From positions 20,015 to 84,014 of the forward strand of contig JBPXJQ010000049.1 of assembly GCA_051715345.1 (NCBI GenBank): DNA of 64,000 nucleotides, written 5' to 3'. Below the pieces are notes generated by a model that saw nothing but the letters and a program-made list of their open reading frames with translations, did not search any database and was not told the origin of the DNA. Of this stretch, positions 5,203 through 63,990 are shown one piece after another (the stretch's first letter is position 1; each line of letters begins with the position of its first letter). The translations under genes and the position numbers were made by a program. Source of the stretch: Candidatus Blackallbacteria bacterium (GTDB lineage: Bacteria > Cyanobacteriota > Sericytochromatia > UBA7694).

Positions 5203-5224
5203 ATCTAACTCTCCACGCTCTCTT

Positions 5225-21518: not shown

Positions 21519-21545
21519 CTTTTTCTAATAATGCGATTATAACCA

Positions 21546-21573
21546 TTGACTTGGGGCTTGACCTTGTTAAAAT
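21546..21573 (+). promoter_or_regulatory. Candidate sigma70-type promoter (TTGACT-N16-TAAAAT) for the channel gene
   Basis: -35 TTGACT is at 21546-21551 and -10 TAAAAT at 21568-21573, in the 130-bp intergenic gap upstream of the 21650 start. Confidence 0.4.
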
Positions 21574-21649
21574 GGGGCTGGCTAAGCAAAGCTGAATATT
21601 CACTTAAAAAACAGTTTCGCAGTAAATTCTCTCTATTCAGGAGCCTCTG

Positions 21650-23560
21650 GTGGGCAAAATTCCCCTTTCGTACCGTCTGCGCTATCATTTCGACAATACC
21701 ATGTCCAAAGGCACACCCGCCTTGATTGGCTGGCTTTTTGCGATCACTGCTTTGGTGATTTTTTTGGTGGCCTTGGGCCTGATCAATTCCCCACTGGTGC
21801 CGATCGAAGACAAAAAACCGATTGGACTGGATAAAGCACTCTGGAATGTGCTGATGCGTTCCATAGACGCTGGCACTGTGGCGGGCGATGTTGGCACCTG
21901 GCCCTATTTGCTGCTGATGTTAGGTGTCACCTTTTTTGGCATTTTTGTTGTCAGCATCTTGATTGGCCTTTTGACCAGCGGGATAGAAAACAAAATGGAC
22001 GAATTGCGCAAAGGCCGTTCGCGGGTGATTGAAAGCAATCACACCGTGATTCTGGGCTGGTCCTCTCAGGTTTTCACGATTATCTCTGAATTGATGGTGG
22101 CCAATGAAAATGTCAAGCGCCCGGCGATTGCCATTTTGGCCGAAAAAGACAAAGTCGAGATGGAAGATGAGATCCGCGACCGTTTGGGGGGAACGGGCAA
22201 TACCCGTGTGATCTGCCGCAGTGGCAATCCGATTGAAATGAGCGATTTGCAGATCGTCAATCCCCAAGATGCCCGATCGATTGTGATTCTGGCTCCCGAA
22301 GACTCCCAAGATCCCGACTCCCACGTGATCAAAACCATTTTGGCTTTAACCAACCACCCCGAGCGCAAGCCCGAACCCTACCATATTGTCGCTGAAATTC
22401 ACTCGCCACAAAATCTCGATGTGGCCAAAATGGTCGGCGGTGACGAAGTTGAATTGGTTTTGGGCGAAGATCTCATTGCGAGAATCTCTGTTCAGACCTG
22501 CCGCCAATCGGGCCTGTCGGTGGTCTATACCGAATTATTGGACTTTGACGGCGACGAAATTTACTTTCAAGCAGAACCCGGTTTGGTTGGCAAAACCTTT
22601 GCCGAAGCGATCATGTCTTACGAAGAGTCGGCCCTGATGGGGCTGCGCAAAGCCGATGGCGACATTTTGATCAATCCCCCGCTCGAAAGCCTGATCGCCA
22701 CCGGAGATAAGGTGATCGCCATTGCCCGTGACGATGATGCGGTGGTGCTTTCCAAGACCAGCGATCACCAGATCGACGAAAATGCAATTCAATTGCGCGC
22801 TCCCGAGGCCAATGTTCCTGAAAAAACCCTGATTCTGGGCTGGAATCAGCGGGGCTTTATTATCATGTCGGAGCTCGACAATTATGTCAGCCCGAACTCA
22901 GCCTTGACGATTGTGGCCGATGTAGAAGAAGCTGTCGAAATGGCGATTCGGGCCCGCAGCGAAAACATGACAAACCAAAGTCTGAGTTTTACCCAGGCAG
23001 ATACCACCGATCGCAAAGTGCTGGAAAGCCTTCAGTTGGAGAACTTTGCGCATATTATTACCCTGAGTTATTCCGACACGCTTGAAATTCAAGCTGCAGA
23101 CGCCAAAACCCTGGTGACCCTGTTGCACCTCAGAGATATCTCCGAAAAAAGCCAGGTCAGCCTTTCGATTGTCAGCGAGATGTTGGATTCACGCAACCGC
23201 GAGCTGGCCTCGGTGACCCAGGCCGACGATTTTATTGTCAGCGATAAACTGATCAGTTTGATGCTCTCTCAGCTCTCAGAAAACAAAGAGCTGGGCCGGG
23301 TTTTTGACGATCTCTTTCAATCCGAGGGCTCCGAAATCTACCTCAAACCGATCGACGAATATATCCGCCTGGATCAGCCTGTCAATTTTTATACCCTGCT
23401 CAAAGCGGCCAGTCAGCGCGGAGAGTTGGCGATTGGCTATCGCCTGCAGGCCCACGCCCAGGATCGGGAAAATGGCTTTGGCGTCAAAGTCAATCCGAAA
23501 AAATCTGAGCGGATTCAATTTGGCCCCTTGGACAAATTGATCGTCTTGGCCGAAGATTAA
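21650..23560 (+). CDS. CASTOR/POLLUX (DMI1)-like ion channel with tandem RCK/TrkA-N domains
   Basis: 636 aa with N-terminal TM helices. HTVILGWSSQVFTIISEL matches the CASTOR/POLLUX ILGWSD motif, and there are two RCK-like NAD-fold halves. The GTG start is as called; an ATG 17 codons downstream is an alternative. Confidence 0.6.
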   Translation: MGKIPLSYRLRYHFDNTMSKGTPALIGWLFAITALVIFLVALGLINSPLVPIEDKKPIGLDKALWNVLMRSIDAGTVAGDVGTWPYLLLMLGVTFFGIFVVSILIGLLTSGIENKMDELRKGRSRVIESNHTVILGWSSQVFTIISELMVANENVKRPAIAILAEKDKVEMEDEIRDRLGGTGNTRVICRSGNPIEMSDLQIVNPQDARSIVILAPEDSQDPDSHVIKTILALTNHPERKPEPYHIVAEIHSPQNLDVAKMVGGDEVELVLGEDLIARISVQTCRQSGLSVVYTELLDFDGDEIYFQAEPGLVGKTFAEAIMSYEESALMGLRKADGDILINPPLESLIATGDKVIAIARDDDAVVLSKTSDHQIDENAIQLRAPEANVPEKTLILGWNQRGFIIMSELDNYVSPNSALTIVADVEEAVEMAIRARSENMTNQSLSFTQADTTDRKVLESLQLENFAHIITLSYSDTLEIQAADAKTLVTLLHLRDISEKSQVSLSIVSEMLDSRNRELASVTQADDFIVSDKLISLMLSQLSENKELGRVFDDLFQSEGSEIYLKPIDEYIRLDQPVNFYTLLKAASQRGELAIGYRLQAHAQDRENGFGVKVNPKKSERIQFGPLDKLIVLAED

Positions 23561-47672: not shown

Positions 47673-48503
47673 ATGGCAATTACACCCCCATCTCTCAGAG
47701 TAATCCTGTCTTGGGGGGGGCTGCTCAGCTCGCTGCAATTACTGGCCTGTAGCTCTCCCCGGCCAGCCCCGCTCGATCTGACAGAACTCAATCAAGCCAT
47801 TCATCGCTTAACCAATGCCCTGCGGGTCGAAAAAGGCCTGCCGCCATTGGCTGAACTTGATAGCTTAAATTCCCTTTCAACGCGCCACAGCTTGGACATG
47901 GCACGGCAGAATTTTTTCGACCATACCAATCCCCAAGGCCAGGATCCCTTTTCTCGACTTAAAGCCCAACAGCCAGGCCTGCTTGTGACTGTTTCTGGTG
48001 AAAACATCGCCATGCGCAGCACCGCAGGCGAAAAGGCGAGCGAATTTGCCCAGGTATTGCTTGAGCTTTGGAAAAATTCTCCCGAACACTATGCCCATTT
48101 GGTCGAACCCACGTTTCGGCATTTGGGGGTGGGTGTGGCTCAGGCCGAAGATCGGATCTATGCCACCCAAACCTTTGCTGCCGCTGTGGCTGAATTGGAA
48201 GCCCCCCTGCCTGAAACGGTTTCAACAGGAGAGACCGTCAACCTCTCTTTCCGCTTTCATGCCGATTTTCCGCCAGCGGAACTCAGCGCCTTTATGAGTG
48301 CTCCCGATGGCACTGCCCGCATTCCCAGCGGCGACGGGCGCTATTATATCGGCAAAGGCCCGATTGGCATTCAATGGAGCGATAGCATGCATTTTCAGAT
48401 TCAGATTCCCACCCTTTACGGTTTGGGCAATTATCGGCTGAGTTTGGGCCATCAATCCCAGTATTATGATCACCCGTTTGTGTTTAAAGCCCTGGCCAAA
48501 TAA
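47673..48503 (+). CDS. CAP (SCP/PR-1-like) domain lipoprotein
   Basis: It has a signal peptide with lipobox LLACSS. The CAP signature segments are HSLDMARQNFFDHTNPQG, GENIA and NSPEHYAHL. Confidence 0.7.
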   Translation: MAITPPSLRVILSWGGLLSSLQLLACSSPRPAPLDLTELNQAIHRLTNALRVEKGLPPLAELDSLNSLSTRHSLDMARQNFFDHTNPQGQDPFSRLKAQQPGLLVTVSGENIAMRSTAGEKASEFAQVLLELWKNSPEHYAHLVEPTFRHLGVGVAQAEDRIYATQTFAAAVAELEAPLPETVSTGETVNLSFRFHADFPPAELSAFMSAPDGTARIPSGDGRYYIGKGPIGIQWSDSMHFQIQIPTLYGLGNYRLSLGHQSQYYDHPFVFKALAK

Positions 48504-48650: not shown

Positions 48651-50288
48651 ATGTCTATTGAACCCATATCCGAAGCCGAAACTGAAGATTCGCTCGATCG
48701 CTTTCTTGCGACAGAAACCTCAACCCAAAGTTTAGAGACCCCCACAGAGAGCTATCTTTCTCCTTTTGCTGGCCTGAGCCTGTATGCCGAAGAAGATGAA
48801 TACCAAGAAGAAGATGAAGATCTACCGCCTTTTATGCGGGCCCAAGCCCAAAAAACAGAAGAAAAACCCGCGCCGGTTGCCCCTTCGGTACCAGAAACAC
48901 CCTCGGCCAAGGTGACTCCCGCCGCTCCAGCGGCCCCGCCCCCTGTTCCCCAACGGGCAGCCGCTGAATTGGCCCCTGAAGAGTTGCAAGAGACCCTGAT
49001 TGTGGGGGGATTCAGTTTAAATTCAGGCGATAGTCAATACAAGCAAGAAGAGAGCATGCTCAATTATCTGATCAAAAATGCCCTGGTTGATCAGGTTTCT
49101 GCGATCCATATTGAACCCATGGACCGGTATATTCGTGTGCGCTACCGGATTGGCGGTGTTTTACAACAAAAAACCGCCTTGCCCCCCAATTTGGGCATGC
49201 CCATGCTTGCGCGTTTAAAACAACTCTGTGCCTTAAATGCCGAAACTGTTGCATCACCCCAGCAGAACCGGGTTCACGCCAGTTTTAATGAGCAAGAATT
49301 TGAGTTGGGCTTGGCCACCTATCCCACCGCCTGGGGTGAGAGCATGGTCTTGAGTTTGCGTCAGAAACAGAAATCTGCCAATGATGTACTCCGACTCGAT
49401 AGCATTGGGCTTTCACCCTTGAATCTTTGGCGCTTGCAAAAATTATTGGGCCAACCCGGCGGCCTGACGATCGTGACCGGCCCCGCCCGTTCAGGCAAAA
49501 CAACCACCCTTTATGCAGCTTTAAATGCCCTAAATTTGCTCAGCCGTTCGATTGTTACGGCTGAAAATCCGCTCGAACACCTGATCATGGGCATTACCCA
49601 GGGCAATTGGAGCCCCGAAAACGGGGAATCTTATCCAGACTTGATCCGCGCCATGTCTCATTTGGATCCCGATGTCTTGATGGTGAGTCAATTGGATTCA
49701 CCCGAAACCGTTGAAGCCACTGTGGAGCAAGCTCTTACCGGTGCCAAGGTGCTCACTTCGTATCACAGCTTTGATACCATGGGGGCCCTGCTGCGTTTGG
49801 GGGTGCAGGGGCTGGAATCGTATTTGATCGCCTCCAGCAATGTGACCCTGATTTCCCAGCGCTTGGTGCGCAAGCTTTGCCCCCATTGTCGCCATGCCGA
49901 TTCTCCTCCCAAAGAATTCCTCGACGTCTTGGGACTCAAAGGGGTTCATCCCAAGTCTTTTCCCGTTTATTGGGCCCGTGGCTGTAGCGAATGTAATCAA
50001 ATGGGCTATTTGGGCCAAACCACCCTGCAAGAGATGTTGGTCTTAAACGAATCCATGCGTGAGGCCATTTTGGACCATCAACCCGCCGCCCGTATTCGCG
50101 AGTTGGCGAGACAAGAAGGCAAATTGGTGACCATGGCTGAAGACGGCTATTTTAAGGCCACAGAAGGGATCACCTCACTCTCTGAAGTGCAAAGGGTGGC
50201 TTTTGTGAACGAGTTTGATGCCAAATCACCCTGGGAAGCCGAAAAAATCCTCAAGGTCTGCAAGGGTGAAGATCAGAGCTATTTGTAA
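48651..50288 (+). CDS. Atypical GspE/PilB-family secretion ATPase, paralog 1 (acidic disordered N-terminus, divergent Walker A and Asp box)
   Basis: It has the N1E/N2E cores HIEPMDRYIRVRYRIGGVL and Walker A TGPARSGKTTTL. The Asp box reads TAENPLEH, with N replacing the usual D. The tetra-Cys motif is CPHC...CSEC. A C-terminal tail VAFVNEFDAKSPWEAE is shared with paralog 2. Confidence 0.8.
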   Translation: MSIEPISEAETEDSLDRFLATETSTQSLETPTESYLSPFAGLSLYAEEDEYQEEDEDLPPFMRAQAQKTEEKPAPVAPSVPETPSAKVTPAAPAAPPPVPQRAAAELAPEELQETLIVGGFSLNSGDSQYKQEESMLNYLIKNALVDQVSAIHIEPMDRYIRVRYRIGGVLQQKTALPPNLGMPMLARLKQLCALNAETVASPQQNRVHASFNEQEFELGLATYPTAWGESMVLSLRQKQKSANDVLRLDSIGLSPLNLWRLQKLLGQPGGLTIVTGPARSGKTTTLYAALNALNLLSRSIVTAENPLEHLIMGITQGNWSPENGESYPDLIRAMSHLDPDVLMVSQLDSPETVEATVEQALTGAKVLTSYHSFDTMGALLRLGVQGLESYLIASSNVTLISQRLVRKLCPHCRHADSPPKEFLDVLGLKGVHPKSFPVYWARGCSECNQMGYLGQTTLQEMLVLNESMREAILDHQPAARIRELARQEGKLVTMAEDGYFKATEGITSLSEVQRVAFVNEFDAKSPWEAEKILKVCKGEDQSYL

Positions 50289-54728: not shown

Positions 54729-57452
54729 TTAATCTGTGGTGAGTGTGGTTGGTGCCCCGGCCACCACCAAGGTGCAGGCCGCAGGCTGAAGATGTTTTTG
54801 GGCCGCAGCTTGAATCGACTCAGGGGTGAGTGCTTCCAAGCGCTGCCAATGGTCTTCTAAATGTTTCTCGGGCCAGGCGTAAATTTCACGTTGCAGCAAA
54901 AATCCGACGCGCTGGTCGTTGGTTTCAAAGCGAAAGGGCAATCGCCCGCTGAGATAGGCACGGGACCGGTCCAATTCCAATTGGCTAATTCCGTCATTTA
55001 AGAGCTTTTCGACCTCTTCGCGCATGGCTTTGAGACCGGGGGCCACCCCTTCTGGACGGGTTTCCATCCAGGCCATAAAGACGCCAGGATAGAGACCTGC
55101 ACTGCCCGTAATCGAGGCCCCAGCGCTGTAAGCCAGGCCCTCTTGCTCGCGTAAACGTGCTGGCAAGCGTGAAGTAAAACCAGGGCCGGCTCCCAAGACC
55201 AAGTCGAGAATCTGCAAGGCGGCAAAATCGCTGTGGCGACGATCCACGCCCAAATGACCCCAATAAACTTGGCATTGTTCTTTGCCCGGCAGATGAATTT
55301 GCTGAAAAGAAGGGGTATTTTGGCGCAGGGGCAGGGGATAATGGGGGGCGATGCCTTTGGCCGGAGAAAAATCGTGCCAAATTTCGGCGAGTTGGGCCAG
55401 GGTCTCTTTGGCAGAAACCGCACCTGACAGGGCCAAAATTGCCCCCTGAGAGCCATACCAGGTCTGGTAAAACTGCCGCACGTCTTTTGCTTGCAGCGGT
55501 TCGACACTGCTGATCATGCCACTTTCAGGTCTTGAGGCCGGAAAATCACCATAGATCGACTTGTAAAAGGCCCGACTGGCCAAATACGAGGCCTGTTCTT
55601 CTGCTGCTTCGAGGTCGGTTAAAATCAGGCGTTTTTCACGCAAAATTTCGACTTCGTCCAAAGCCGGTGAACCCAAAATTTCGCGCATCAAATGCAAAGC
55701 CGTGTCTTGATGTTTGGCCAAAATTTCAAAACTCAAAAAACTGCCACTCAGGCCAGTTGCCACACTCAGGCTGCCGCCCAATGATTCCAAATAGCGTGAG
55801 AGGGCCACACCGGGTTTGGCTTGGGTGCCTTTGATCAGGGCCGAGGCTGTCAGATTGGCCAGACCTTGCTGTTTGATGGGGTCGTGCAGGCTCCCCGCTG
55901 GCCAAAAGACCTCCAAAGACAGGGTGGGAATGCGCATGTTTTCGTGTACCAACAGCGTCATGCCATTCGGCAAAGACAGCTTTTCGGCATGTAAGCTGGG
56001 AAACCAGAGATGGGGGGCGGGCAGGGGTTTTTCGGTAAAACTCATGCTGCGGTGGGCCTGGGGGCGGGAGTGGGTGCGATCAGCCAGGGGGGCTGCCGAA
56101 GATTCCCCTTCTTGATCGGGGTCAGAATGTTCGGGCATGAGCCAACCGACTGTGCGGCGCTCTGGAGCCAGCCAGTTCAGGGCCACGCGGGTGATATCTT
56201 CCACTTTGACAGCCTGAATCTGGGGCACAAAATCATGAATCAATTGCCAGCGGGCCAAACTTGCCAACTCACCCAGCACCTCGGCCTGGTCTTCAGCGGT
56301 TTCTTGACTGAGGTAAAAGTCGGTCAACATCTGGTTTTGGGCCTTGGTTAAATGGGCAAAATCCCACTCCCCGTTTTGGACCTTGGTCAGGGCCTTGAAA
56401 AGTGCGGCTTCGGTCTGGGCCAAGGGAATCCCTGAATGTCCATCCACAGCAATCCAAAACAGATAGGGCTGTTCTGTTTCAAAACAGGCGGCGTCGATAT
56501 CTGTGGCCACTTGTTCCTCTTCCACCAAGGTTTGATAGAGCAGCGAACTGAGGCCTTCGGCCAGGATGTACTGCAGCAAACTCAGGGCATAATAATCGGG
56601 ATGGGTCAAGGCTGGCGCTGGCCAAGCGACGACCAAACGCGGCAGGGTCACATCGGCCTGGGTCAGACTGACCCGGCGTTCAGCAATTTGCAGCGGTTCC
56701 GCTTGGTATTGGCGCGGTGGCAATTTACCTGCGGGCAAGGCCCCGAAATAGTGTTTGACGCGTTCAAGTGCCTGATCGGTTTGAATATCGCCGACGATCA
56801 CCAGGGTGGCATTGTTGGGGTGGTACCACTTTTGGTAATAGGCCCGCAATTCTTCAGGGCTGAGGTTTTTAATGTCGTCGACCCAGCCCAGCACCGGATT
56901 GCGGTAGGCGTGTGTGGTTAACGCGGCCTGGGTCACGGCCTCCCAGAGGTTTTCTTCGGGATCGTCTTTGGACGTGCGCCACTCTTCGAGAATCACCTGG
57001 CGCTCAGCTTCGATCTCGATCGGATCAAGCAGGCAATTTAACATGCGGTCGGCTTCAATTTCGAGTGCGATTTCCCAGCGGTCCGAAGCAAAATTAAAAT
57101 AATAAGCGGTATTGTCAATCCAGGTATAGGCGTTGTTTTCACCCCCACCCGACAGGGTCAGTCGGTCGATTTCGCCCCGTGGAAAAAGCCGGGTGCCTTT
57201 AAACAGCATATGCTCCAAAAAATGAGAGACCCCGGTGGGGGAGCCCGCTTCGTTGCCTGAGCCGGTGTGATACCAAATCATGACCGTCACCACGGGCAGA
57301 GCTGAGTCTGCTCTGAGTAAGACACGCAAACCGTTGTCCAGGTGGCTTTCTTGGACATCGGCAAAAAGGTCAGTTGGAAAAGGGGATTCAGGCGTTAGAC
57401 TCATGATTGCAACAGTATACCGCAATTGGGGGGGGCGGGCCTGTGATCGCAC
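54729..57452 (-). CDS. Tandem-domain M16 (pitrilysin/insulinase) family zinc peptidase
   Basis: 907 aa with an HFLEH (HxxEH) zinc motif near the N-terminus and a second inactive-like M16 half. A possible alternative start lies at MSLTPESPF, 16 codons downstream. Confidence 0.8.
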   Translation of the reverse strand: MRSQARPPQLRYTVAIMSLTPESPFPTDLFADVQESHLDNGLRVLLRADSALPVVTVMIWYHTGSGNEAGSPTGVSHFLEHMLFKGTRLFPRGEIDRLTLSGGGENNAYTWIDNTAYYFNFASDRWEIALEIEADRMLNCLLDPIEIEAERQVILEEWRTSKDDPEENLWEAVTQAALTTHAYRNPVLGWVDDIKNLSPEELRAYYQKWYHPNNATLVIVGDIQTDQALERVKHYFGALPAGKLPPRQYQAEPLQIAERRVSLTQADVTLPRLVVAWPAPALTHPDYYALSLLQYILAEGLSSLLYQTLVEEEQVATDIDAACFETEQPYLFWIAVDGHSGIPLAQTEAALFKALTKVQNGEWDFAHLTKAQNQMLTDFYLSQETAEDQAEVLGELASLARWQLIHDFVPQIQAVKVEDITRVALNWLAPERRTVGWLMPEHSDPDQEGESSAAPLADRTHSRPQAHRSMSFTEKPLPAPHLWFPSLHAEKLSLPNGMTLLVHENMRIPTLSLEVFWPAGSLHDPIKQQGLANLTASALIKGTQAKPGVALSRYLESLGGSLSVATGLSGSFLSFEILAKHQDTALHLMREILGSPALDEVEILREKRLILTDLEAAEEQASYLASRAFYKSIYGDFPASRPESGMISSVEPLQAKDVRQFYQTWYGSQGAILALSGAVSAKETLAQLAEIWHDFSPAKGIAPHYPLPLRQNTPSFQQIHLPGKEQCQVYWGHLGVDRRHSDFAALQILDLVLGAGPGFTSRLPARLREQEGLAYSAGASITGSAGLYPGVFMAWMETRPEGVAPGLKAMREEVEKLLNDGISQLELDRSRAYLSGRLPFRFETNDQRVGFLLQREIYAWPEKHLEDHWQRLEALTPESIQAAAQKHLQPAACTLVVAGAPTTLTTD

Positions 57453-57519: not shown

Positions 57520-59511
57520 ATGAGTCAAACGCAGCCATCCAGACAAGGACAGGCCGGTTTCCGCATTGGTGAACTGCTGGTACGCGAAGGCTATCTCACC
57601 ATGGATGCCCTGAACAAAGTCCTGGCGATTCAAAAGCAGCAAAAAGAGGCCCTGAGCGGTGAATACAAGCCCTTCGGACAGATTTGTCTGGAGCTGAAAC
57701 TGATCACCCGTGAAGAGTTACAGCGCTTTCTGAAAAAATACAACAAACGCATTTACCTGGGTGAATTGCTCGTGAATATGGGGCTGATCACGATCAAACA
57801 CGTGGACCTGATTCTCAACCAACAAAAACAAAGTGGCAAACGCTTTGGTGAGCTGTTGGTGGAACAGAAAATCATCACCGAATCCCAATTGACCGACGCC
57901 CTTTCGACCCAATTGGATGTGCCCAAAATTATCCCTTCGCTGCAATTGATGGACCGCTCGCTGATGGACGGCATGTCTGAGCAATTTGTGCGCTCCAATC
58001 AGTTTTTGCCAGTCTACAAAGAGGGGGACCAACTCACGGTCGTGATGGCCGACCCTGCCAATCAGGATCTGGTCAAAGAACTGGAACACCAATTGCAATT
58101 GCGGATTGCCCCCGCCATTGCCCCTGCCTCTGAAATTTCCCGCACGATCAACGAGTATTACCACAGCTCGACTTCGATCGACAAAAAAATGGATCCGAAT
58201 TTGGAGCAGGTCAAACTCGAAGGCATTCAGCCCGAAGCCGAAGACAAAGCCAGTTCTCAAGACAATTCAGCGGCCATTGCCAATTTCTTGATCTCCAATG
58301 CCATGAAAGACCGGGCTTCGGATATTCACGTCGAACCCCAAGAAAAATATATCCGCATCCGCTACCGCATTGACGGGGTTTTGCACCACAAAACCGACCT
58401 TCCCAGCAATTTGGGTCCGGCCCTGGTCACCCGCCTGAAAAAGGTCTGCCGCCTCAATCCCGACGATGTCAAAGCCTATCAAGATGGGCGCGTGGTCGGA
58501 GATATTGCTGGCAGCAAAATCGAAATCCGGGTCTCGACCTATCCCAGCATCTGGGGCGAAAACGTGGTCATTCAATTGCAGGACAAAGAGAGCACTTTCC
58601 AAGATCTGCTCTTAAATATGGACCGCACAGGCTTTTCGCCACTGTATATTCAGCGCTACCAAAAGATCCTCAACCAACCCGGTGGGATTGTAATTGTGAC
58701 CGGCCCTGCCAATACCGGCAAGACCACCACGCTTTACGCCTCAATCAATTACCTCAATCAACAGAACCGCTCGATCATCACGGCCGAAGATCCGATTGAA
58801 CGGCCCGTGCCTGGCACGGTTCAGGGGGCCTATAACCCCGATTCGGGTATCAGCTACGCAGACATGATTCTGGCCATGTTGAAACAGGATCCAGATATTC
58901 TTGTGGTGGGAGAAGTCAAAGACAAAGCCACCATGGGTGCTGTGGTCGAAGCCGCGCTCTCAGGCTCCAAGGTGCTCACCACCTATCCGGCCTTTGACGC
59001 CACGGGCGCGCTTTTGCGCTTGATGAATCTGGGGCTGGAAGACTATTTGATTGCCTCCAGCAATATCACAGTCATGAACCAGCGTTTGGTGCGCCGCCTC
59101 TGTGATTCTTGTAAAGCCACTTATACCCCCAAGAAAGAGACCTTTAATCTCTTGGGTCTGGTCGATGTCGATCCCTCTTCGTATGAATTTTACCGGCCAG
59201 TGGGTTGCCCCGAGTGCAGCCAACACGGTTTTAAAGGCCAGACAGCGATTCACGAATTGTTGCAGATCAACGAAGCGATTCGTGAGGCCCTGATCGAGCG
59301 CAAACCCGCCGCCACCATTCGCGGGATCGCCAGAACCGAAGCCAAATTGGTGAGCATGGCCGAAGACGGTCTTTACAAGGCCATCGAAGGCATGACCTCG
59401 GTCGAAGAAGTCCAGCGCGTGGCCTTTGTCAATGAATACGATTCACAAACCCCCTGGGAAGCTGAAGAGATCTACCAGATCTGTTCTGGCCTGGAACCCG
59501 AATACCTGTGA
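57520..59511 (+). CDS. Atypical GspE/PilB-family secretion ATPase, paralog 2, with three N-terminal MshEN-like (c-di-GMP-binding type) repeats
   Basis: It has three repeats of the ~24-aa motif (FRIGELLVREGYLTMDALNKVLAIQ / IYLGELLVNMGLITIKHVDLILNQQ / KRFGELLVEQKIITESQLTDALSTQ). There follow the GSPII_E N domain (FVRSNQFLPVY), N2E HVEPQEKYIRIRYRIDGVL, Walker A TGPANTGKTTTL, Asp box TAEDPIER and tetra-Cys CDSC...CPEC. Confidence 0.85.
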   Translation: MSQTQPSRQGQAGFRIGELLVREGYLTMDALNKVLAIQKQQKEALSGEYKPFGQICLELKLITREELQRFLKKYNKRIYLGELLVNMGLITIKHVDLILNQQKQSGKRFGELLVEQKIITESQLTDALSTQLDVPKIIPSLQLMDRSLMDGMSEQFVRSNQFLPVYKEGDQLTVVMADPANQDLVKELEHQLQLRIAPAIAPASEISRTINEYYHSSTSIDKKMDPNLEQVKLEGIQPEAEDKASSQDNSAAIANFLISNAMKDRASDIHVEPQEKYIRIRYRIDGVLHHKTDLPSNLGPALVTRLKKVCRLNPDDVKAYQDGRVVGDIAGSKIEIRVSTYPSIWGENVVIQLQDKESTFQDLLLNMDRTGFSPLYIQRYQKILNQPGGIVIVTGPANTGKTTTLYASINYLNQQNRSIITAEDPIERPVPGTVQGAYNPDSGISYADMILAMLKQDPDILVVGEVKDKATMGAVVEAALSGSKVLTTYPAFDATGALLRLMNLGLEDYLIASSNITVMNQRLVRRLCDSCKATYTPKKETFNLLGLVDVDPSSYEFYRPVGCPECSQHGFKGQTAIHELLQINEAIREALIERKPAATIRGIARTEAKLVSMAEDGLYKAIEGMTSVEEVQRVAFVNEYDSQTPWEAEEIYQICSGLEPEYL

Positions 59512-60614
59512 GTTTGCGCCGCTCTGCCCCCGGCATTCGGCTCTCACGTTTATTCTGGCTTTTTGCCTGCCTATTCTGGGCCAGCTTATGCTGGGCCGGG
59601 GACAGTTTCGCCAACGACAGCAGTATTGCGTTTGAGGCGGGACTGCCCCGGCTCCAGTCTGAAAAAGATGTGGACATGGTGGCTGAGAAATTGGTCTTTT
59701 CTTTTCGGCCCCCACAGCGCTTGCCCGTCGGTAAGGCCTGCCCAGCTTGGAGCCGGGTCTACGAGGGTTTTTGCGAGATTCCCAGCCACTGGGTGGCCGA
59801 GCTAAAGTACACCTTTCGCAACCGGGGTCCGGCACGCAAATTACAGATCGGCCTGCCTTTTGACATGCCCCCCTGCCCCCCAGAAAGTGATATCAACGGG
59901 CCCAAGGCCTGTGACCCGATTGAAAATTTTGGCACCTGGCTTGATGGCCAACGGGTGCCCGTCACGTTTTTAAACCAAACCTGGCAAGAGGCGATTCCCT
60001 TTAACCGGGTCTATCTCTCCGAGGTGCCTTTTGCCAGGGGGCAAACCCGCGTCTTGCGCCACCAATACCTGAGTTACCACCAATCGGGCATTGGCGGGGA
60101 GCGCTTTCGCTATTTGTTGCGCACGGGCAGTACCTGGGGTCAACCGATTGAAAAGGTAGAAATCGCCTTTGAATTGCCGCCCCAACTCGGCCCCTGCGCC
60201 CTGAGCAATTTGCCTTTTCAACGGCTGGGGAATTGGCTCAAGATTGATTTGCACCATTGGCGTCCAGAGCGCGATCTGGAAATCGCCTTTGCCTCCCGTG
60301 AGCGGGCACTGCTTGGGACCGCCTTTCATCCCTATGGCCAAGCAGCGGAAGCGGATCTCTGCGCAGAGGCCCGCGCTTTGGACCCTCAAACACGTCAAAC
60401 CCTGGTGGATCAGGTCAAACGTCTCTATGGGGCCCCAGCCAGTTCCACCCCCCAACTCGCAGGTGATGCTTGGCCGCTTTGCGCCAATGCCGATTATCTC
60501 TCTCCCTACCGCGACACAGGTTTTGCCCTGCCCTTTTTGCCGGATCCAGCTTGGCCCAGCAATCTGCCCAGCGGGCTGGCAATCTGTTTAAAAGAATTGG
60601 ACAATCAACCATGA
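59508..60614 (+). CDS. Secreted hypothetical protein translationally coupled (GTGA) to ATPase paralog 2
   Basis: It has a signal peptide MSLRRSAPGIRLSRLFWLFACLFWASLCWAG and six or more Cys residues. No domain recognised. Confidence 0.5.
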   Translation: MSLRRSAPGIRLSRLFWLFACLFWASLCWAGDSFANDSSIAFEAGLPRLQSEKDVDMVAEKLVFSFRPPQRLPVGKACPAWSRVYEGFCEIPSHWVAELKYTFRNRGPARKLQIGLPFDMPPCPPESDINGPKACDPIENFGTWLDGQRVPVTFLNQTWQEAIPFNRVYLSEVPFARGQTRVLRHQYLSYHQSGIGGERFRYLLRTGSTWGQPIEKVEIAFELPPQLGPCALSNLPFQRLGNWLKIDLHHWRPERDLEIAFASRERALLGTAFHPYGQAAEADLCAEARALDPQTRQTLVDQVKRLYGAPASSTPQLAGDAWPLCANADYLSPYRDTGFALPFLPDPAWPSNLPSGLAICLKELDNQP

Positions 60615-61744
60615 ACAATGCCGAACAGATTCCCACAGCCATCCAAAGCTTGCAACTTTCCCTGGGCCCTCACAACAGCTCAGAAATTCGCATTGGCGCA
60701 GGTATTTTGGCTCACCTCCCCGAGTGGCTGCCCAAAGACAGCGCCGATCCCCATGTGGTGCTGGTGGCGGACGCTTTTTTAAGCGCTCAGGCCGAAGTGC
60801 TTCAGGCGGCTTTCTTGGCTCAGGGCTGGCGTGCAGACCTGATTCAGGTGCAGGTCAGTGAAGCTTTTAAAGATTTGGAAAAGCTCTTGCCACTTTACGG
60901 CCAATTGCTCGAAGCCAAAACCCATCGTCGCTCCTGGCTCTTGGCCCTGGGCGGCGGCGTGATCGGCGACGCCGCGGGTTTTCTCGCTGCCAGTTATATG
61001 CGCGGGATTCGCTGGGTCAGCTTGCCTTCGACCTTGCTGGCCCAGGTCGACAGTGGCCTCGGCGGCAAAACGGGGGTCAATCATCCCGCAGGCAAAAACC
61101 TGATTGGGGCCTTTCATCAGCCCCGTTGGGTACTCTGTGATTCGGCATTATTGAACAGTTTGCCCGCCCGTGACGTGGTCTCGGGCCTGGGTGAAATGTT
61201 GAAATATGGCTTGATCTACGATGCCGCCTTTTTTGACTGGCTGATGGCCCATTTGCAAGCCTTACAGGCCCTGGATGCAGATTGTTTGGTTGCTGCGATT
61301 GGCCGCTGTGTGGACTTTAAACTACAGGCCGTGGCCGCCGACGAACGCGACGAAAGCGGGGTGCGCGAAATCCTCAATTTTGGTCACACGGTGGGTCATG
61401 CACTGGAGAGTTTGAGTGATTATGGCTATTATCGCCACGGCGAAGCTGTGATTTTGGGCATGTGGGCTGCGATTGAAATCTCTGCCAGATCTGGCCTGCT
61501 GGCTGAGTCATGTGCAAAAGAGTTACAAAGCAGTCTCGAAAAATTAAAACTACCGCCCATTCCCGAAATTATCACCGACAATGCAATTTGGGCCAAGTTG
61601 CGCTACGACAAAAAAGCCGAGGGCAGTTCCCTGCGTCTGATTCTGCTCAAAAATCTGGGCCAACCTGTGGTCGTCAAAGACACCCCCGTGGCACTTATTC
61701 GGGAGGCGATTCAGGCACTTTTGAAGCGCTTTCAAGCCCTTTAA
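60611..61744 (+). CDS. aroB: 3-dehydroquinate synthase
   Basis: 377 aa starting at MNNAEQIPT; the ATG overlaps the upstream stop. It has a GGGVIGDAAGF NAD-binding motif and metal-binding His (NFGHTVGHALE). Confidence 0.85.
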   Translation: MNNAEQIPTAIQSLQLSLGPHNSSEIRIGAGILAHLPEWLPKDSADPHVVLVADAFLSAQAEVLQAAFLAQGWRADLIQVQVSEAFKDLEKLLPLYGQLLEAKTHRRSWLLALGGGVIGDAAGFLAASYMRGIRWVSLPSTLLAQVDSGLGGKTGVNHPAGKNLIGAFHQPRWVLCDSALLNSLPARDVVSGLGEMLKYGLIYDAAFFDWLMAHLQALQALDADCLVAAIGRCVDFKLQAVAADERDESGVREILNFGHTVGHALESLSDYGYYRHGEAVILGMWAAIEISARSGLLAESCAKELQSSLEKLKLPPIPEIITDNAIWAKLRYDKKAEGSSLRLILLKNLGQPVVVKDTPVALIREAIQALLKRFQAL

Positions 61745-62483
61745 AATAGTCCATCAGGCGCGTCAGCAAGAGCTGTTTGTGTCCGGCTGGTGCCAAACGT
61801 TCAAAGATCGCTTCAAAGCGATCCGCCAAAGGTGTAAAGGCGTAAAACAAGAGGTTTTGCCCTTGGCTGACCTCGGCCTGAATACGCAGGGCCTCTGAAT
61901 GGCACGTCAGTGGCAGCGGCTTCTTGCGCGCCATCATCTGCTGCAAAAAACCCGAGAGTGGCAGGGGCTTTTCGCCAGGCAGGCGTTTGCTAAAAAAATA
62001 GCCCATGGCCCGGCAGCTCAGCGGCCGATAGGCATAAACGGAGCAGCGCCCATCGATTAAGAGTGGGCAGCCGAGTTGGGCATAGGCATTGCGGGGGTGA
62101 CGGGGCCAGCCTTGGCTGTCAAAATCGGCTTCAGGAATCGCAGACACCTGGGCCTGCACCCGCGCGCGGGTTGTTTCGGGCATGTCTGAAAGCGCCACTT
62201 GCACCAGTTCCCATTCGGCCCGCGTGACTTCGGGCAAGGCATAGCTCTCGCAGCAACGGCTGCAGCCCTGGGCACAGCCAATATTGGGGTTGAGCTTTTG
62301 CAACCGGTCGGTGAGAATATCCACGGCCAGCAGGCATTGCTCCAGCAAGAGGTGATCCTTGATTTCTTCGGCCAAAAAATGCACGTCTTCAATCCAGGAC
62401 TTTTGCTCAGGGCTCAGTTGATCATACAGGGCCCGGATTTCGGGCTGCATTTGCTTGGGCGGTTCAGGGCGTGGCATGGGCAA
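61695..62483 (-). CDS. YkgJ-family (CxxCxxCC) putative Fe-S/zinc protein, copy 1
   Basis: It has the CAQGCSRCCES motif and further Cys residues (CPLLIDGRCSVYAYRPLSCR) typical of the YkgJ/UPF0153 family. Confidence 0.6.
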   Translation of the reverse strand: MPMPRPEPPKQMQPEIRALYDQLSPEQKSWIEDVHFLAEEIKDHLLLEQCLLAVDILTDRLQKLNPNIGCAQGCSRCCESYALPEVTRAEWELVQVALSDMPETTRARVQAQVSAIPEADFDSQGWPRHPRNAYAQLGCPLLIDGRCSVYAYRPLSCRAMGYFFSKRLPGEKPLPLSGFLQQMMARKKPLPLTCHSEALRIQAEVSQGQNLLFYAFTPLADRFEAIFERLAPAGHKQLLLTRLMDYFKGLESASKVPESPPE

Positions 62484-63069
62484 AATACCTCTCTAAAAAG
62501 ACCAATAAGCTCGATGCGGGTTTGCCATCTAAGGCTTCCAGGGTTTGAAACAGGGTTTCACGCGGAGGAAGATTTACAGGCGGGGCATCTGCCATTTTGA
62601 GTTGTTTTTCCCAGCGCTCTTTTTCCATGGTGCAGCTGTAGATCTCCTGCCAATTGCCGGGGTCGGAGTCGGCGAAAAGACGCGTATTGCCAAAGGTGCG
62701 GCAGGTCAATGGGCGCGCCGCATAGATCGAGCAGCGGCGGTCTTCCAAAAAAGGACAGGTGGTTTCAAACAAGGCCTCGCGCAAACTGACCAATTCGCCG
62801 CTTTTTAGGTTCTGACGCAGGCCCTGTTTGAGGGTCTCAAAGCGCTCTCTCACCCGGGCTGTAAAGGCCGAATCTTGTGCGAGCAGGGCTTCTATGCCCT
62901 GCCACTCCAGGGCATAGGTAATTGGGCTGCCATGGTGTTCACAGCAAAAAGAACAGCCTGCATGGCAGATCATCTCTGGGTTTTGGCTGTGAACTTCCTG
63001 CTGCAGTCGATCGGCCTCGGCAAACAAGGCATTCAGGGCTTCGGCCTGTGAGGCGGAAGTGGATTCCAT
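62464..63069 (-). CDS. YkgJ-family (CxxCxxCC) putative Fe-S/zinc protein, copy 2
   Basis: It has the CHAGCSFCCEH motif and a CPFLEDRRCSIYAARPLTCR segment. It is a paralog of the downstream gene. Confidence 0.6.
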   Translation of the reverse strand: MESTSASQAEALNALFAEADRLQQEVHSQNPEMICHAGCSFCCEHHGSPITYALEWQGIEALLAQDSAFTARVRERFETLKQGLRQNLKSGELVSLREALFETTCPFLEDRRCSIYAARPLTCRTFGNTRLFADSDPGNWQEIYSCTMEKERWEKQLKMADAPPVNLPPRETLFQTLEALDGKPASSLLVFLERYFAHATP

Positions 63070-63078
63070 CGGGCAACC

Positions 63079-63990
63079 TCAATCGGGCAAGTGATGCTGT
63101 ATCTTACCATTTTGGGGCAGGGACTGCTGCGCCGAGCTTGGACTGCGCTGCAAGACAAATAAGCTCGGAGCTGCGCCATCGTTGTCTGAACCCAGATAGA
63201 GTTTACCTGGTGCCAAAGCCAAACCCTCAATTTTGTGACCCACAAAGCGTGCGTCGAGTTGGCTCAAATTGAACCAATGGCTGGGTTTGAGTACGCTTTC
63301 AGTTTCGAGTTTGGAATAATTTTCAATCACGCCCAGATACGAATCACCAATTTGCCCATCTTCGTAAACACTGCCTGTCAACTCAGTCGTGGCTGTAAAC
63401 CAGAGCCGGTCGGTCTCGGCCTCGTATTCCAGTGCAGAAATCCCCGCAAAGATTTCTGTGGGCAAGTCCAAACGCTGAAGGCCCATGACTTGTTCGGCCT
63501 GAACCCGAATCAGGGAATTAACCGGCTGGCCCAAGTGACCGCGATTGGCCAAAAGAAACCCAGCGCCAAAGGCCGCTGCCCCTTCGATATTCAATTCCAG
63601 ACCTTTGGCAGCAATCTGGCTGTAGACAGGGCTTAAGTTACCTATTTCAAAGGTTTGGCCATCAAGATCCACTTTGACCAAGCGATTGCGGATCGCAGCT
63701 AAAGTACCAGAACCAGAGCCAGATCCAAAAATCCAGAGCTGGCCATCGACCCAAGCCGAAGCTTCAAAATCTGATTTATGTGCCTTGGGAATTTCGGCAA
63801 AATCTCCATTGGGGTTCAAAGCCAAACGTGGAGAAATCTCAAAGGTGTTTAAATCGAGCTGATAAAGCCCATCGACATTGTCTGCCAAGAGCCAGAGACC
63901 TTCGGGACTCCAATGCAAGGCGGAAATGCCGGGCAGGGCATTTAAAGTCAACGCCAGCCAAAGCGAAAATGGAGCAAGTAATTCTGCCAT
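63079..63990 (-). CDS. Secreted hypothetical protein (possible beta-propeller/phytase-like fold)
   Basis: It has a signal peptide MAELLAPFSLWLALTLNALPGISA. Repeated beta-strand-rich segments resemble esterase-like phytase domains only weakly. Confidence 0.4.
   Translation of the reverse strand: MAELLAPFSLWLALTLNALPGISALHWSPEGLWLLADNVDGLYQLDLNTFEISPRLALNPNGDFAEIPKAHKSDFEASAWVDGQLWIFGSGSGSGTLAAIRNRLVKVDLDGQTFEIGNLSPVYSQIAAKGLELNIEGAAAFGAGFLLANRGHLGQPVNSLIRVQAEQVMGLQRLDLPTEIFAGISALEYEAETDRLWFTATTELTGSVYEDGQIGDSYLGVIENYSKLETESVLKPSHWFNLSQLDARFVGHKIEGLALAPGKLYLGSDNDGAAPSLFVLQRSPSSAQQSLPQNGKIQHHLPD

What the first reader, a model, noticed from the sequence alone, without database searches (positions are those of the whole stretch)
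57520..59511. GspE/PilB-like ATPase with three MshEN-type repeats and no cognate secretion machinery nearby
The N-terminus carries three consecutive 24-residue motifs matching the RLGxxLVxxGxITxxQLxxALxxQ c-di-GMP-binding MshEN consensus (FRIGELLVREGYLTMDALNKVLAIQ; IYLGELLVNMGLITIKHVDLILNQQ; KRFGELLVEQKIITESQLTDALSTQ). A full GspE ATPase core follows. There are no platform (GspF/PilC), secretin or pilin genes within ~10 kb. Instead a translationally coupled secreted Cys-rich protein lies downstream and an M16 peptidase lies divergent upstream.
Basis: partly seen in the sequence, partly recalled or inferred. Interest (0 to 1): 0.58.

Follow-up and report, generated by a model that had tools for sequence, protein, structure and literature searches.

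The report
Orphan c-di-GMP-sensing PilB-like ATPase, altered active site
This gene encodes a pilus-motor-type (PilB-like) protein from a non-photosynthetic relative of cyanobacteria that carries two predicted c-di-GMP-binding modules. It belongs to a small lineage-specific group of paralogues that have lost key catalytic residues, so it is probably a signal-sensing regulator rather than a standard secretion or pilus motor.

Summary
The ORF (57520-59511, 663 aa) is real and under strong purifying selection. The three MshEN-type motifs are real and far beyond chance. The N-terminus is two complete c-di-GMP-motif domains (aa 15-74 and 79-131), followed by an MshEN C-subdomain and a PilB/GspE core.

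The core is not complete. Both His-box histidines are replaced (S483, P490). This holds in all 56 members of a clade found only in Sericytochromatia MAGs.

Each genome carries 2-3 such paralogues. One (545 aa, no MshEN) lies 7 kb upstream in this window. It and a third paralogue also carry a Glu-to-Gln change at the catalytic glutamate.

No PilC/GspF, secretin or pilin gene is in the window. A lone prepilin gene lies about 9.5 kb downstream, just beyond the window end. The downstream secreted protein is linked only in orthologues of at least 91% identity.

The N-terminal layout, a C-terminal tail and the orphan status are shared with a wider, catalytically intact PilB-like subfamily.

Best reading: a c-di-GMP receptor on a PilB scaffold with impaired or altered ATP turnover, acting as a regulator. 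It is a new variant of a known kind, of moderate interest.

The parts
57520..59511 (+). Gene for the PilB-like protein 'paralogue A' (663 aa)
   Evidence: The ORF is confirmed. Pfam finds T2SSE plus MshEN. The best matches among solved structures are Thermus PilF and Geobacter PilB. Ka/Ks is 0.014-0.039.
57562..57741 (+). c-di-GMP-motif domain 1 (aa 15-74). It consists of motif 1 (aa 15-38), a 12-residue spacer, and a diverged motif (aa 51-74).
   Evidence: On its own it scores 42.3 bits on NF053729 against a cut-off of 38. The AF2 model has helices at 16-22, 28-43, 52-58 and 64-73. P51, G53, Q54, C56, L67 and L71 are at least 90% conserved in the clade. Ka is about 0 against L006.
57754..57912 (+). 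c-di-GMP-motif domain 2 (aa 79-131). It consists of motifs at aa 79-102 and 108-131 with the canonical 5-residue spacer.
   Evidence: It scores 61.7 bits on NF053729 and aligns to MshE structure 5htl. Both motifs match 10 of 11 consensus positions. The deviations are Y79 in place of Arg and K117 in place of Gly.
57946..58173 (+). MshEN C-terminal subdomain (aa 143-218)
   Evidence: Pfam PF05157, 64.9 bits, profile positions 12-88 of 90.
58174..58263 (+). Disordered linker (aa 219-248)
   Evidence: pLDDT is below 50 for aa 218-246. This region has the highest Ka/Ks in the gene, 0.21.
58279..59418 (+). T2SSE core, N2D plus CTD (aa 254-633). Retained residues: Walker A G395-T402, Arg fingers R324 and R337, Asp-box E423, Walker-B E465, and Zn cysteines C528, C531, C563 and C566.
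   Evidence: Pfam PF00437, E = 1.9e-92. Motif columns come from the 122-sequence alignment. Residues were mapped to G. metallireducens PilB.
58954..59007 (+). Remodelled His box (aa 479-496, ALSGSKVLTTYPAFDATG). S481, S483 and P490 replace T411, H413 and H420 of G. metallireducens PilB.
   Evidence: Both histidines are lost in 56 of 56 clade members and kept in about 140 of 147 other representatives.
59422..59508 (+). Conserved C-terminal tail (aa 635-663, AFVNEYDSQTPWEAEEIYQICSGLEPEYL)
   Evidence: Invariant columns are A635, F636, V637, N638, E639, D641, P645, W646, A648, I651 and G657. Ka is 0 against L001. Residues 648-655 form a helix at pLDDT 84-93. Related tails occur in the wider subfamily but not in classical PilB.
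48651..50288 (+). Paralogue B (545 aa). It belongs to the same clade and has the same C-terminal tail. It has no MshEN, and its N-terminus is acidic and Pro/Ala-rich. It carries Walker-B Glu to Gln and second Arg finger to Gly.
   Evidence: T2SSE E = 3.7e-76. It is 51% identical to A over 412 aa.
59508..60614 (+). Downstream ORF (368 aa). It has a signal-peptide-like N-terminus, 10 Cys and a weak DUF4424 N-terminal match. Its start overlaps the ATPase stop codon (GTGA). It is probably co-transcribed, but it is not a conserved partner.
   Evidence: It is present only next to orthologues of at least 91% identity.
54729..57452 (-). Divergent 907-aa double-M16 peptidase. It is a neighbour, and any functional link is unproven.
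   Evidence: Pfam finds M16 and M16_C twice. A 28%-identical double-M16 gene lies next to outgroup member P0060. No M16 gene is present in the other contexts examined.

Best explanation
The gene encodes 'paralogue A' of a PilB-derived protein family found only in Sericytochromatia, the non-photosynthetic sister class of cyanobacteria.

Anatomy, as shown: two MshEN_N-type four-helix c-di-GMP-motif domains (aa 15-74 and 79-131), an MshEN C-subdomain, a flexible linker, the PilB N2D and CTD core with Walker A and the Zn-Cys4 motif, and a strongly conserved C-terminal tail.

Mechanism, as inferred:
- The protein still forms a PilB-like hexamer and still binds ATP, because Walker A, Asp-box Glu, the Arg fingers and Walker-B Glu are all kept.
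- It binds c-di-GMP at least at the canonical pair (aa 79-131), and possibly at a second site (aa 15-74).
- Both His-box histidines are replaced by a new, conserved motif, (T/S)YPAFDATG. One of these histidines contacts the gamma-phosphate and couples neighbouring subunits in PilB. ATP turnover or inter-subunit cooperativity is therefore impaired or rewired.
- Two sister paralogues in the same genome also carry Glu to Gln at the catalytic glutamate and lack the second Arg finger. These are B in this window and C on another contig.

I therefore read the family as nucleotide- and c-di-GMP-gated regulatory or scaffold subunits rather than autonomous motors. They would act through the shared C-terminal tail, through mixed oligomers with each other, or on a pilus machine encoded elsewhere. 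It is not the motor of a secretion system encoded next door.
For: Domains and motifs.

Structure:
- Sequence and fold matches go to PilF, PilB, GspE and MshE.
- The AF2 model shows eight N-terminal helices in two groups of four.

Catalytic residues:
- In 56 of 56 clade members both His-box histidines are replaced. The catalytic Glu, the GEIRD Arg and the Arg fingers are variably lost. Walker A and Asp-box Glu are kept.
- Outgroup sequences of 46% identity or less keep every one of these residues.
- McCallum 2017 reports these residues as conserved across the family, with H420 on the gamma-phosphate.
- The equivalent PilT H229A mutant abolishes twitching motility.
- The T2SSE profile score falls from 400-420 bits in the outgroup to 310 (A) and about 255 (B, C).

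Not a pseudogene: Ka/Ks is 0.014-0.039, with Ka about 0 in both c-di-GMP modules and in the tail.

Distribution:
- The clade was found only in about 10 Sericytochromatia MAGs out of 185,579 species genomes, with 2-3 paralogues per genome.
- Only about 6 clusters among 1.84 billion representatives share the His loss.
- The clade is monophyletic in a neighbour-joining tree.

Paralogue table.

No conserved neighbours and no pilus or T2SS genes lie within 10 kb in any of about 25 loci.

c-di-GMP link for the wider subfamily: REC-GGDEF and HD-type genes sit next to intact relatives.

Arg at motif position 1 is not required for binding. A hydrophobic replacement is associated with high affinity in PilF GSPII-B.
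Against: - No biochemistry exists for any member.
- Paralogue A itself keeps the catalytic Glu, both Arg fingers and Asp-box Glu, so it may still hydrolyse ATP.
- His-box loss could be compensated by the new conserved motif.
- K117 replaces the turn glycine of the last motif. Small deviations abolish binding in PilF GSPII-A, so c-di-GMP binding is not assured.
- I could not inventory the whole genome. If no canonical PilB exists there, this protein may simply be the pilus motor.
- A prepilin gene lies 9.5 kb away.
- Hetero-oligomerisation of A, B and C is pure inference.
Confidence: 0.5

Rival explanations
1. It is the working type IV pilus extension ATPase (PilB) of this lineage, or one of several. 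It would serve a pilus machine whose genes are scattered around the genome, as they are in cyanobacteria. c-di-GMP would tune assembly as it does for MshE, PilB and PilF. On this reading the His-box change is a tolerated or compensated lineage-specific variant.
For: - The best family scores are to PilB (TIGR02538, 445 bits, aa 80-635).
- Paralogue A keeps the catalytic Glu, both Arg fingers, Asp-box Glu, Walker A and the Zn motif.
- A genuine prepilin gene lies 9.5 kb downstream.
- Pilin genes stand alone elsewhere in Sericytochromatia, so dispersal is normal in this group.
- The gene is under strong purifying selection.
Against: - The score is well below the PilB equivalog cut-off of 675.65.
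- The gamma-phosphate-contacting histidine is conserved family-wide, and its mutation abolishes function in PilT.
- Within the orthologue group of A, the first Arg finger becomes Lys in most members. The Walker-B Glu or the second Arg finger is lost in some (P0005, P0020-P0023). A motor should not tolerate these changes.
- No PilC or PilT lies within 10 kb in any of about 25 loci.
Confidence: 0.3
2. It powers or controls export or assembly of its immediate neighbours, as a novel minimal secretion module. The neighbours are the translationally coupled secreted DUF4424-like protein and/or the M16 peptidase.
For: - The start of the downstream gene overlaps the ATPase stop codon (GTGA), and the protein has a signal-peptide-like N-terminus.
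- The same gene pair occurs in Blackallbacteria CG17.
- A double-M16 peptidase also lies beside outgroup member P0060.
Against: - The downstream gene accompanies only orthologues of at least 91% identity. It is absent at 77%, 64% and 52% identity and beside paralogues.
- M16 is absent from the 91% orthologue's locus and from most other contexts.
- A Sec-type signal peptide needs no dedicated ATPase.
- No membrane platform protein is present.
Confidence: 0.05
3. It is a decaying duplicate, a pseudogene in the making, with no function.
For: Catalytic residues are relaxed across the clade.
Against: - Ka/Ks is 0.014-0.039, with no non-synonymous change in the tail and in the motif modules.
- The ORF is intact in more than 50 orthologues and paralogues of constant length.
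- The replaced His-box region is itself highly conserved: Y489, A491, F492, D493, A494, T495 and G496 are at least 90% conserved.
Confidence: 0.02

Closest known systems
Vibrio cholerae MshE and the MshEN c-di-GMP-binding domain (PDB 5HTL; Wang et al. 2016, PMC5013675)
   Same: - Residues 79-131 reproduce the two 24-residue motifs with a 5-residue spacer.
- An MshEN C-subdomain and a PilB/GspE-type core follow.
- Residues 77-213 align to residues 7-144 of 5htl.
- NF053729 scores above its cut-off.
   Different: - An extra MshEN_N-type module (aa 15-74) precedes it, with a 12-residue spacer.
- Y79 replaces the first Arg, and K117 replaces a turn Gly.
- The His box is lost.
- There is no msh or pil operon around it.
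- There is a C-terminal tail.
Thermus thermophilus PilF and Deinococcus PilB (PilB ATPases with several GSPII/MshEN domains)
   Same: - PilF is the best hit among solved structures (6f8l, E = 1.2e-100).
- Several c-di-GMP-motif modules lie N-terminal to a PilB core.
- Individual modules differ in motif quality. In PilF only two of the three bind.
   Different: - PilF has three complete GSPII domains, each with N- and C-subdomains. Here only the N-subdomain is duplicated.
- PilF has an intact active site and is a proven pilus and DNA-uptake motor.
(MshEN_N)2 tandem architecture noted by Wang et al. 2016
   Same: Two consecutive MshEN_N modules.
   Different: In that paper the architecture is described only as a domain arrangement. 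Here it is fused to MshEN_C and a T2SSE core.
Wider 'double-MshEN_N' stand-alone PilB-like subfamily (P0057-P0120; Desulfobacterales, Binatia and others; uncharacterised)
   Same: - The same four-motif N-terminus.
- A related C-terminal tail.
- Orphan genomic position.
- 42-46% identity.
   Different: - These relatives keep every catalytic residue.
- Many have a further C-terminal extension of about 200 aa.
- Some sit next to GGDEF or HD-type genes.
Accessory second ATPases of pilus systems (Acinetobacter TfpB with PilB; PilU with PilT)
   Same: These are extra paralogues of a pilus ATPase that work only together with a primary ATPase. Hetero-association has been proposed for them.
   Different: - TfpB and PilU keep intact catalytic motifs.
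- The score to the TfpB model is far below its cut-off (355 vs 850).
- No interaction data exist for the proteins described here.

Membership tests
T2SSE / PilT-like secretion ATPase superfamily (PF00437) | Profile match above the Pfam gathering score | tested here: met
   310.3 bits against a cut-off of 24.9, aa 254-633. Foldseek top hits are PilF, GspE and PilB.
T2SSE / PilT-like secretion ATPase superfamily (PF00437) | Walker A GxxxxGK[ST] | tested here: met
   GPANTGKT at aa 395-402. G400 and K401 are invariant in the clade.
T2SSE / PilT-like secretion ATPase superfamily (PF00437) | Asp-box glutamate (Mg2+ ligand; E357 in G. metallireducens PilB) | tested here: met
   E423 is invariant in the clade.
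T2SSE / PilT-like secretion ATPase superfamily (PF00437) | Atypical Walker B with the catalytic glutamate (E395 in G. metallireducens PilB) | tested here: met
   E465 lies in DPDILVVGEVKD. The Arg of the canonical GEIRD is Lys here. The Glu is lost in paralogues B and C and in several orthologues.
T2SSE / PilT-like secretion ATPase superfamily (PF00437) | Two arginine fingers (R271 and R286 in G. metallireducens PilB) | tested here: met
   R324 and R337 are present in this protein. The first becomes Lys in most orthologues at 77% identity. The second is lost in B and C.
T2SSE / PilT-like secretion ATPase superfamily (PF00437) | His-box histidines (H413 and H420; H420 contacts the gamma-phosphate) | tested here: not met
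   S483 and P490. Both histidines are lost in 56 of 56 clade members and kept in about 140 of 147 other representatives.
Type IVa pilus assembly ATPase PilB (TIGR02538 equivalog) | Score at or above the curated equivalog cut-off | tested here: not met
   445.3 bits against 675.65.
Type IVa pilus assembly ATPase PilB (TIGR02538 equivalog) | Tetracysteine Zn-binding motif of the PilB/GspE clade | tested here: met
   C528, C531, C563 and C566 are invariant. The motif is described.
Type IVa pilus assembly ATPase PilB (TIGR02538 equivalog) | Works with the PilC platform and other pilus machinery | tested here: inconclusive
   No PilC, secretin or PilT lies in the 64-kb window or within 10 kb in about 25 related loci. 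A lone prepilin gene lies 9.5 kb away. The whole genome could not be scanned.
Type II secretion ATPase GspE (TIGR02533 equivalog) | Score at or above the curated cut-off, and a gsp operon context | tested here: not met
   416.9 bits against 630.25. There are no gsp genes nearby.
MshEN c-di-GMP-binding domain (53-residue domain; NF053729) | Two 24-residue motifs joined by a 5-residue spacer, with the profile score above the cut-off | tested here: met
   Residues 79-102, KQSGK, then 108-131. This stretch scores 61.7 bits alone against a cut-off of 38.
MshEN c-di-GMP-binding domain (53-residue domain; NF053729) | Key ligand-contacting residues: position 1 R/K/L, L2, G3, L17, L21 and Q24 in both motifs, plus the turn Gly at position 10 | tested here: inconclusive
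   - G81, G110, Q102 and Q131 are present, as are V95/L99 and L124/L128.
- Position 1 is Y79 and R108. A hydrophobic residue is tolerated there in PilF GSPII-B.
- Position 2 is L80 and F109.
- The turn Gly is present in motif 79-102 (G88) but is K117 in the last motif.

Sources.
MshEN c-di-GMP-binding domain (53-residue domain; NF053729) | A second, N-terminal domain (aa 15-74) also qualifies | tested here: inconclusive
   It scores 42.3 bits alone, just above the cut-off of 38. However, the spacer is 12 residues, and the second motif has P51, C56, K60 and Y74 at consensus positions. It is strongly conserved in the clade.
MshEN c-di-GMP-binding domain (53-residue domain; NF053729) | Actual binding of c-di-GMP | not testable with these tools
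   This needs ITC or DRaCALA on residues 1-135 and on each module.
Thermus PilF-type triple-GSPII ATPase | Three complete GSPII domains (N- and C-subdomain each) before the core | tested here: not met
   There is only one MshEN C-subdomain, at aa 143-218. Only the N-subdomain is duplicated.

The most novel reading that the evidence does not exclude
The Sericytochromatia clade would be the first natural family of PilB-derived pseudo-motors. Three paralogues per genome (A, B and C) carry different, partly complementary active-site defects:
- A keeps the catalytic Glu and both Arg fingers but has no His-box histidine.
- B keeps the gamma-phosphate histidine but has Glu to Gln and lacks the second Arg finger.
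- C lacks all of these.

The three would assemble through their shared core and C-terminal tail into mixed hexamers. Active sites form between subunits, so c-di-GMP binding to the MshEN modules of A and C would gate a slow nucleotide switch rather than a motor.
Probability: 0.2. Interest if true: 0.65.

Novelty: new variant of a known kind. Interest (0 to 1): 0.42.

Why it matters
c-di-GMP receptors on the cyanobacterial branch are poorly defined. A review notes that none of the Synechocystis MshEN domains has the full tandem motif, and that binding to cyanobacterial PilB has never been shown. This protein has a near-canonical tandem motif plus a second module, in the sister class of cyanobacteria. 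That makes it a good test case.

More generally, a whole clade of PilB-type proteins has given up the His box, and in its paralogues the catalytic glutamate, while staying under strong selection. [quoted passage not shown]

Tried and rejected
- Looking up the window's own protein in the assembly index found no record. Context was taken from orthologues instead.
- An Rfam scan of 44-64 kb, looking for example for c-di-GMP riboswitches, found nothing.
- A search for a conserved neighbour by all-against-all clustering of ORFs from about 29 loci found only TPR-type proteins recurring, and no specific partner.
- I tried to see beyond the prepilin gene with a metagenome scan using the neighbouring radical-SAM protein. 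It returned non-syntenic loci. The pilin's own lookup then gave the region, which holds no further pilus genes within 10 kb.
- A second Sericytochromatia pilin on a 3.5-Mb contig also stands alone. It did not lead to a pil cluster.
- I could not establish whether a canonical PilB, PilC or PilT exists elsewhere in the genome.
- I considered whether the C-terminal tail is unique to the clade. It is not: related tails occur in intact relatives.
- I considered whether the tail corresponds to the Hfq-binding C-terminus of cyanobacterial PilB1. No sequence or usable paper was available, so this remains untested.
- I considered a pseudogene and rejected it on Ka/Ks.
- Literature searches for PilB pseudo-ATPases or orphan PilB-like c-di-GMP receptors found nothing relevant.
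Full report
**What is there**

The ORF at 57520-59511 (+) is real: ATG to TGA, 663 aa.

Pfam finds a T2SSE core at aa 254-633 (E = 1.9e-92) and an MshEN match at aa 143-218. The MshEN match is the C-terminal subdomain of MshEN, not the motif region.

The motif region is recognised by NCBIfam NF053729, the 53-position 'c-di-GMP_motif' model. It scores 83.5 bits against a cut-off of 38, in two stretches.

Each matches 10 of 11 consensus positions. No copy at 10 of 11 appeared in 2000 shuffles of the protein. The scan also finds a fourth, diverged copy at aa 51-74, matching 7 of 11.

Fragments searched separately show two complete domains:
- Residues 1-76 alone score 42.3 bits, aligned to model positions 1-52 of 53.
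- Residues 77-136 alone score 61.7 bits.

The N-terminus is therefore two c-di-GMP-motif domains:
- The first has a 12-residue spacer and a diverged second half (P51, C56, K60, Y74).
- The second has the canonical 5-residue spacer.

An AlphaFold model (mean pLDDT 79) places eight helices here in two groups of four. It shows a disordered linker at aa 218-246 and a confident short helix in the C-terminal tail.

Sequence and fold searches against solved structures give Thermus PilF, Geobacter PilB, GspE and MshE.

**The ATPase core is not complete**

I mapped the protein onto G. metallireducens PilB through the alignments and the residue roles given by McCallum et al. 2017.

| Role in G. metallireducens PilB | Residue in this protein |
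|---|---|
| Walker A | G395-T402, kept |
| Arg fingers R271, R286 | R324, R337, kept |
| Asp-box Glu E357 | E423, kept |
| Catalytic Glu E395 | E465, kept |
| Zn cysteines | C528, C531, C563, C566, kept |
| His-box H413 | S483 |
| His-box H420 (contacts the gamma-phosphate) | P490 |
| T411 | S481 |

The Arg of the canonical GEIRD is Lys (GEVKD).

The scores stay below the equivalog cut-offs for PilB (445 vs 675.65) and GspE (417 vs 630.25).

The equivalent PilT mutant H229A abolishes twitching motility. His-box residues are described as essential for PilT activity.

**Who has it**

The closest relatives are all from Candidatus Sericytochromatia/Blackallbacteria, at 49-91% identity.

In a 122-sequence alignment, all 56 members of this group have lost both His-box histidines. 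The usual replacement is (T/S)YPAFDATG. Many members have also lost the Walker-B Glu (to S, Q, A, H, N or D), the GEIRD Arg, or an Arg finger. Walker A and Asp-box Glu are kept.

The next relatives are at most 46% identical and come from Desulfobacterales, Binatia and others. They keep every one of these residues.

Against 1.84 billion cluster representatives, the score drops from 812 to 599 bits after the first hit. Only about six of the best 150 share the double histidine loss.

A scan of one genome from each of 185,579 species used two clade-specific peptides. It found the clade only in about ten Sericytochromatia MAGs, with two or three paralogues in each. A neighbour-joining tree recovers the clade as monophyletic with three sub-groups. 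This tree is indicative only.

The gene is not decaying. Ka/Ks is 0.039 against the 91% orthologue and 0.014 against a closer one. There is essentially no non-synonymous change in either motif module or in the C-terminal tail.

**Paralogues in the same genome**

Its properties:
- It is 51% identical to A over the core and has the same C-terminal tail.
- It has no MshEN at all. Its N-terminus is acidic and Pro/Ala-rich.
- It carries Gln at the catalytic-glutamate position and Gly at the second Arg finger.
- It keeps the gamma-phosphate histidine.

A third paralogue lies on another contig of the same MAGs: C, 701 aa, 58% identical. It has the four-motif N-terminus, Gln at the catalytic glutamate, Gly at the second Arg finger, and no His-box histidine.

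Glu to Gln at this position is the classic hydrolysis-blocking change. This statement rests on established knowledge and was not tested here. B and C are therefore very probably hydrolysis-dead ATP binders. A is the least degenerate of the three.

**Surroundings**

About 50 ORFs across the whole window were scanned against Pfam. None is a platform protein, secretin, prepilin peptidase, PilT or pilin. No prepilin motif occurs in any frame.

E. coli HofC used as a tblastn probe finds PilC in a Legionella control locus. It finds nothing in the window or in about 560 kb of related loci.

The E. coli pilin probe gave a weak hit just beyond the window end. This turned out to be a genuine prepilin gene (MTRMKRQQSG|FTLVELMVV..., PF07963) about 9.5 kb downstream of the ATPase. 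It heads a same-strand gene string that runs back into the window: pilin, a 370-aa repeat protein, a B12/radical-SAM protein, an Rce1-like protease, DUF6929 and two CxxCxxCC proteins. Beyond the pilin there is no further pilus gene within 10 kb. Another Sericytochromatia pilin also stands alone. Pilus genes therefore appear to be dispersed in this group, and absence of neighbours carries little weight.

The downstream ORF (59508-60614) overlaps the ATPase stop codon as GTGA. It begins with a signal-peptide-like segment and has 10 Cys. It accompanies the ATPase only in orthologues of at least 91% identity. It is missing at 77%, 64% and 52% identity and next to paralogues.

No non-ATPase family recurs specifically beside clade members.

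The M16 peptidase is confirmed. A 28%-identical double-M16 gene also lies directly downstream of an intact outgroup member. It is absent from the other contexts examined.

- The four-motif N-terminus is present in the intact outgroup.
- A related C-terminal tail (..NE.D...P[RW].A.E[IV]..[IL]C.G) also occurs there, but not in classical PilB.
- Four outgroup loci are equally devoid of pilus or T2SS genes.
- Two of them have REC-GGDEF or HD-type genes adjacent to the ATPase, and a third (L029) has a response-regulator gene immediately upstream. This fits a c-di-GMP-linked role for the whole subfamily.
- Tandem MshEN_N modules and multi-MshEN PilB proteins were already described. Thermus PilF shows that individual modules can bind or not depending on small deviations.
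- Arg at motif position 1 is dispensable, and hydrophobic replacements correlate with high affinity. Y79 is therefore not disqualifying.
- K117 at a turn-glycine position is a concern.

**Interpretation**

Shown:
- A strongly constrained PilB-family protein with two c-di-GMP-motif domains.
- Membership in a Sericytochromatia-restricted clade with a remodelled His box and relaxed catalytic residues.
- Multiple paralogues per genome, a shared conserved tail and no conserved neighbours.

Inferred:
- It binds ATP and c-di-GMP.
- Its ATP turnover or subunit coupling is impaired.
- It acts as a regulatory or scaffold subunit, possibly with its paralogues or on a dispersed pilus machine, rather than as the motor of an adjacent secretion system.

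I give this reading about 0.5. The main rival, at about 0.3, is that A is still a working, c-di-GMP-tuned pilus assembly ATPase. A dedicated export role for the neighbouring secreted protein (0.05) and a pseudogene (0.02) are unlikely.

**Novelty and score**

c-di-GMP-binding PilB/MshE ATPases, multi-module N-termini and accessory pilus ATPases are all known. I found no report of a natural T2SSE-family clade lacking the His box. That search covers only the held library.

This is a new variant of a known kind. It is of moderate interest to specialists in pilus motors and c-di-GMP signalling, especially on the cyanobacterial branch, where PilB-c-di-GMP binding remains unproven.

Noticed in passing
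window 48651-50288 (+): A second PilB-like gene (545 aa) from the same degenerate clade. It has no MshEN and an acidic, Pro/Ala-rich N-terminus. It carries Walker-B Glu to Gln and second Arg finger to Gly, and has the same C-terminal tail. A CAP-domain (cysteine-rich secretory protein family) gene lies immediately upstream at 47673-48503.
   Followed up: yes
just beyond the window end (window-equivalent about 69.0-69.6 kb, minus strand); L035 10001-10591, and L005 about 21480-21955: A genuine type IV prepilin gene (196 aa, PF07963). It heads a same-strand string that ends at about 61.7 kb, inside the window: pilin, a 370-aa repeat protein, B12/radical SAM (627 aa), an Rce1-like CPBP protease (631 aa), DUF6929 (window 63079-63990) and two CxxCxxCC proteins (window 61695-63069). 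This could be a pilin-modification or pilin-processing operon. There are no other pilus genes within 10 kb beyond it.
   Followed up: partly
L005 about 21790 (minus strand): The prepilin gene has an in-frame stop (HVL*VM) in the L005 assembly but is intact (HVLQVM) in L013/L035. This could be an assembly error or a strain difference.
   Followed up: no
window 54729-57452 (-) and L029 10167-12824: A large double-M16 peptidase (about 890-907 aa) lies beside the PilB-like gene both here (divergent) and next to a catalytically intact outgroup member from an unrelated MAG (88 bp downstream, same strand). The two peptidases are 28% identical over their full length. This could be a recurrent linkage or a coincidence.
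   Followed up: partly
L039 6547-7962; L038 2892-3836 and 11094-12080; L029 6157-7890: Catalytically intact relatives with the same four-motif N-terminus sit next to REC-GGDEF, HD-type and response-regulator genes. This suggests that the wider orphan subfamily is wired to c-di-GMP signalling.
   Followed up: partly
L028 10001-11947 and 21625-21947 (Blackallbacteria CG17 contig PFFQ01000012.1): A sister group of PilB-like proteins (P0108, P0066) shows a different pattern of degeneracy: QSNH for QDGR, VQDIPD for VGEIRD, and first His to Tyr. It is also an orphan. Another MshEN-T2SSE gene lies 10 kb further on. These genomes hold at least five PilB-like genes.
   Followed up: partly
L032 11992-13719: In a related metagenome contig, the homologue of the radical-SAM gene is followed by yet another T2SSE-like protein (575 aa, partial domain match) and a BatD-like protein.
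   Followed up: no
window 30420-33038 (+): An 872-aa protein with five Big_5 Ig-like domains and a C-terminal ice-binding-like domain (PF11999, E = 6e-71).
   Followed up: no
window 17233-21518 (+): Two tandem Ser/Thr protein kinases (729 and 714 aa), each with a C-terminal Cache-type sensor domain.
   Followed up: no
window 455-13411 (-): A hydrogenase-related cluster. It contains HypF, a HycI-type maturation protease, a NiFe hydrogenase large subunit, an Oxidored_q6 small subunit, a NAD-binding/Fe-S subunit, a 4Fe-4S protein and a small cNMP-binding protein. It is interleaved with PntAB transhydrogenase and a PEP-utilising enzyme.
   Followed up: no
window 21650-23560 (+): A Castor/Pollux-type ion-channel protein with RCK/TrkA-N domains.
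   Followed up: no
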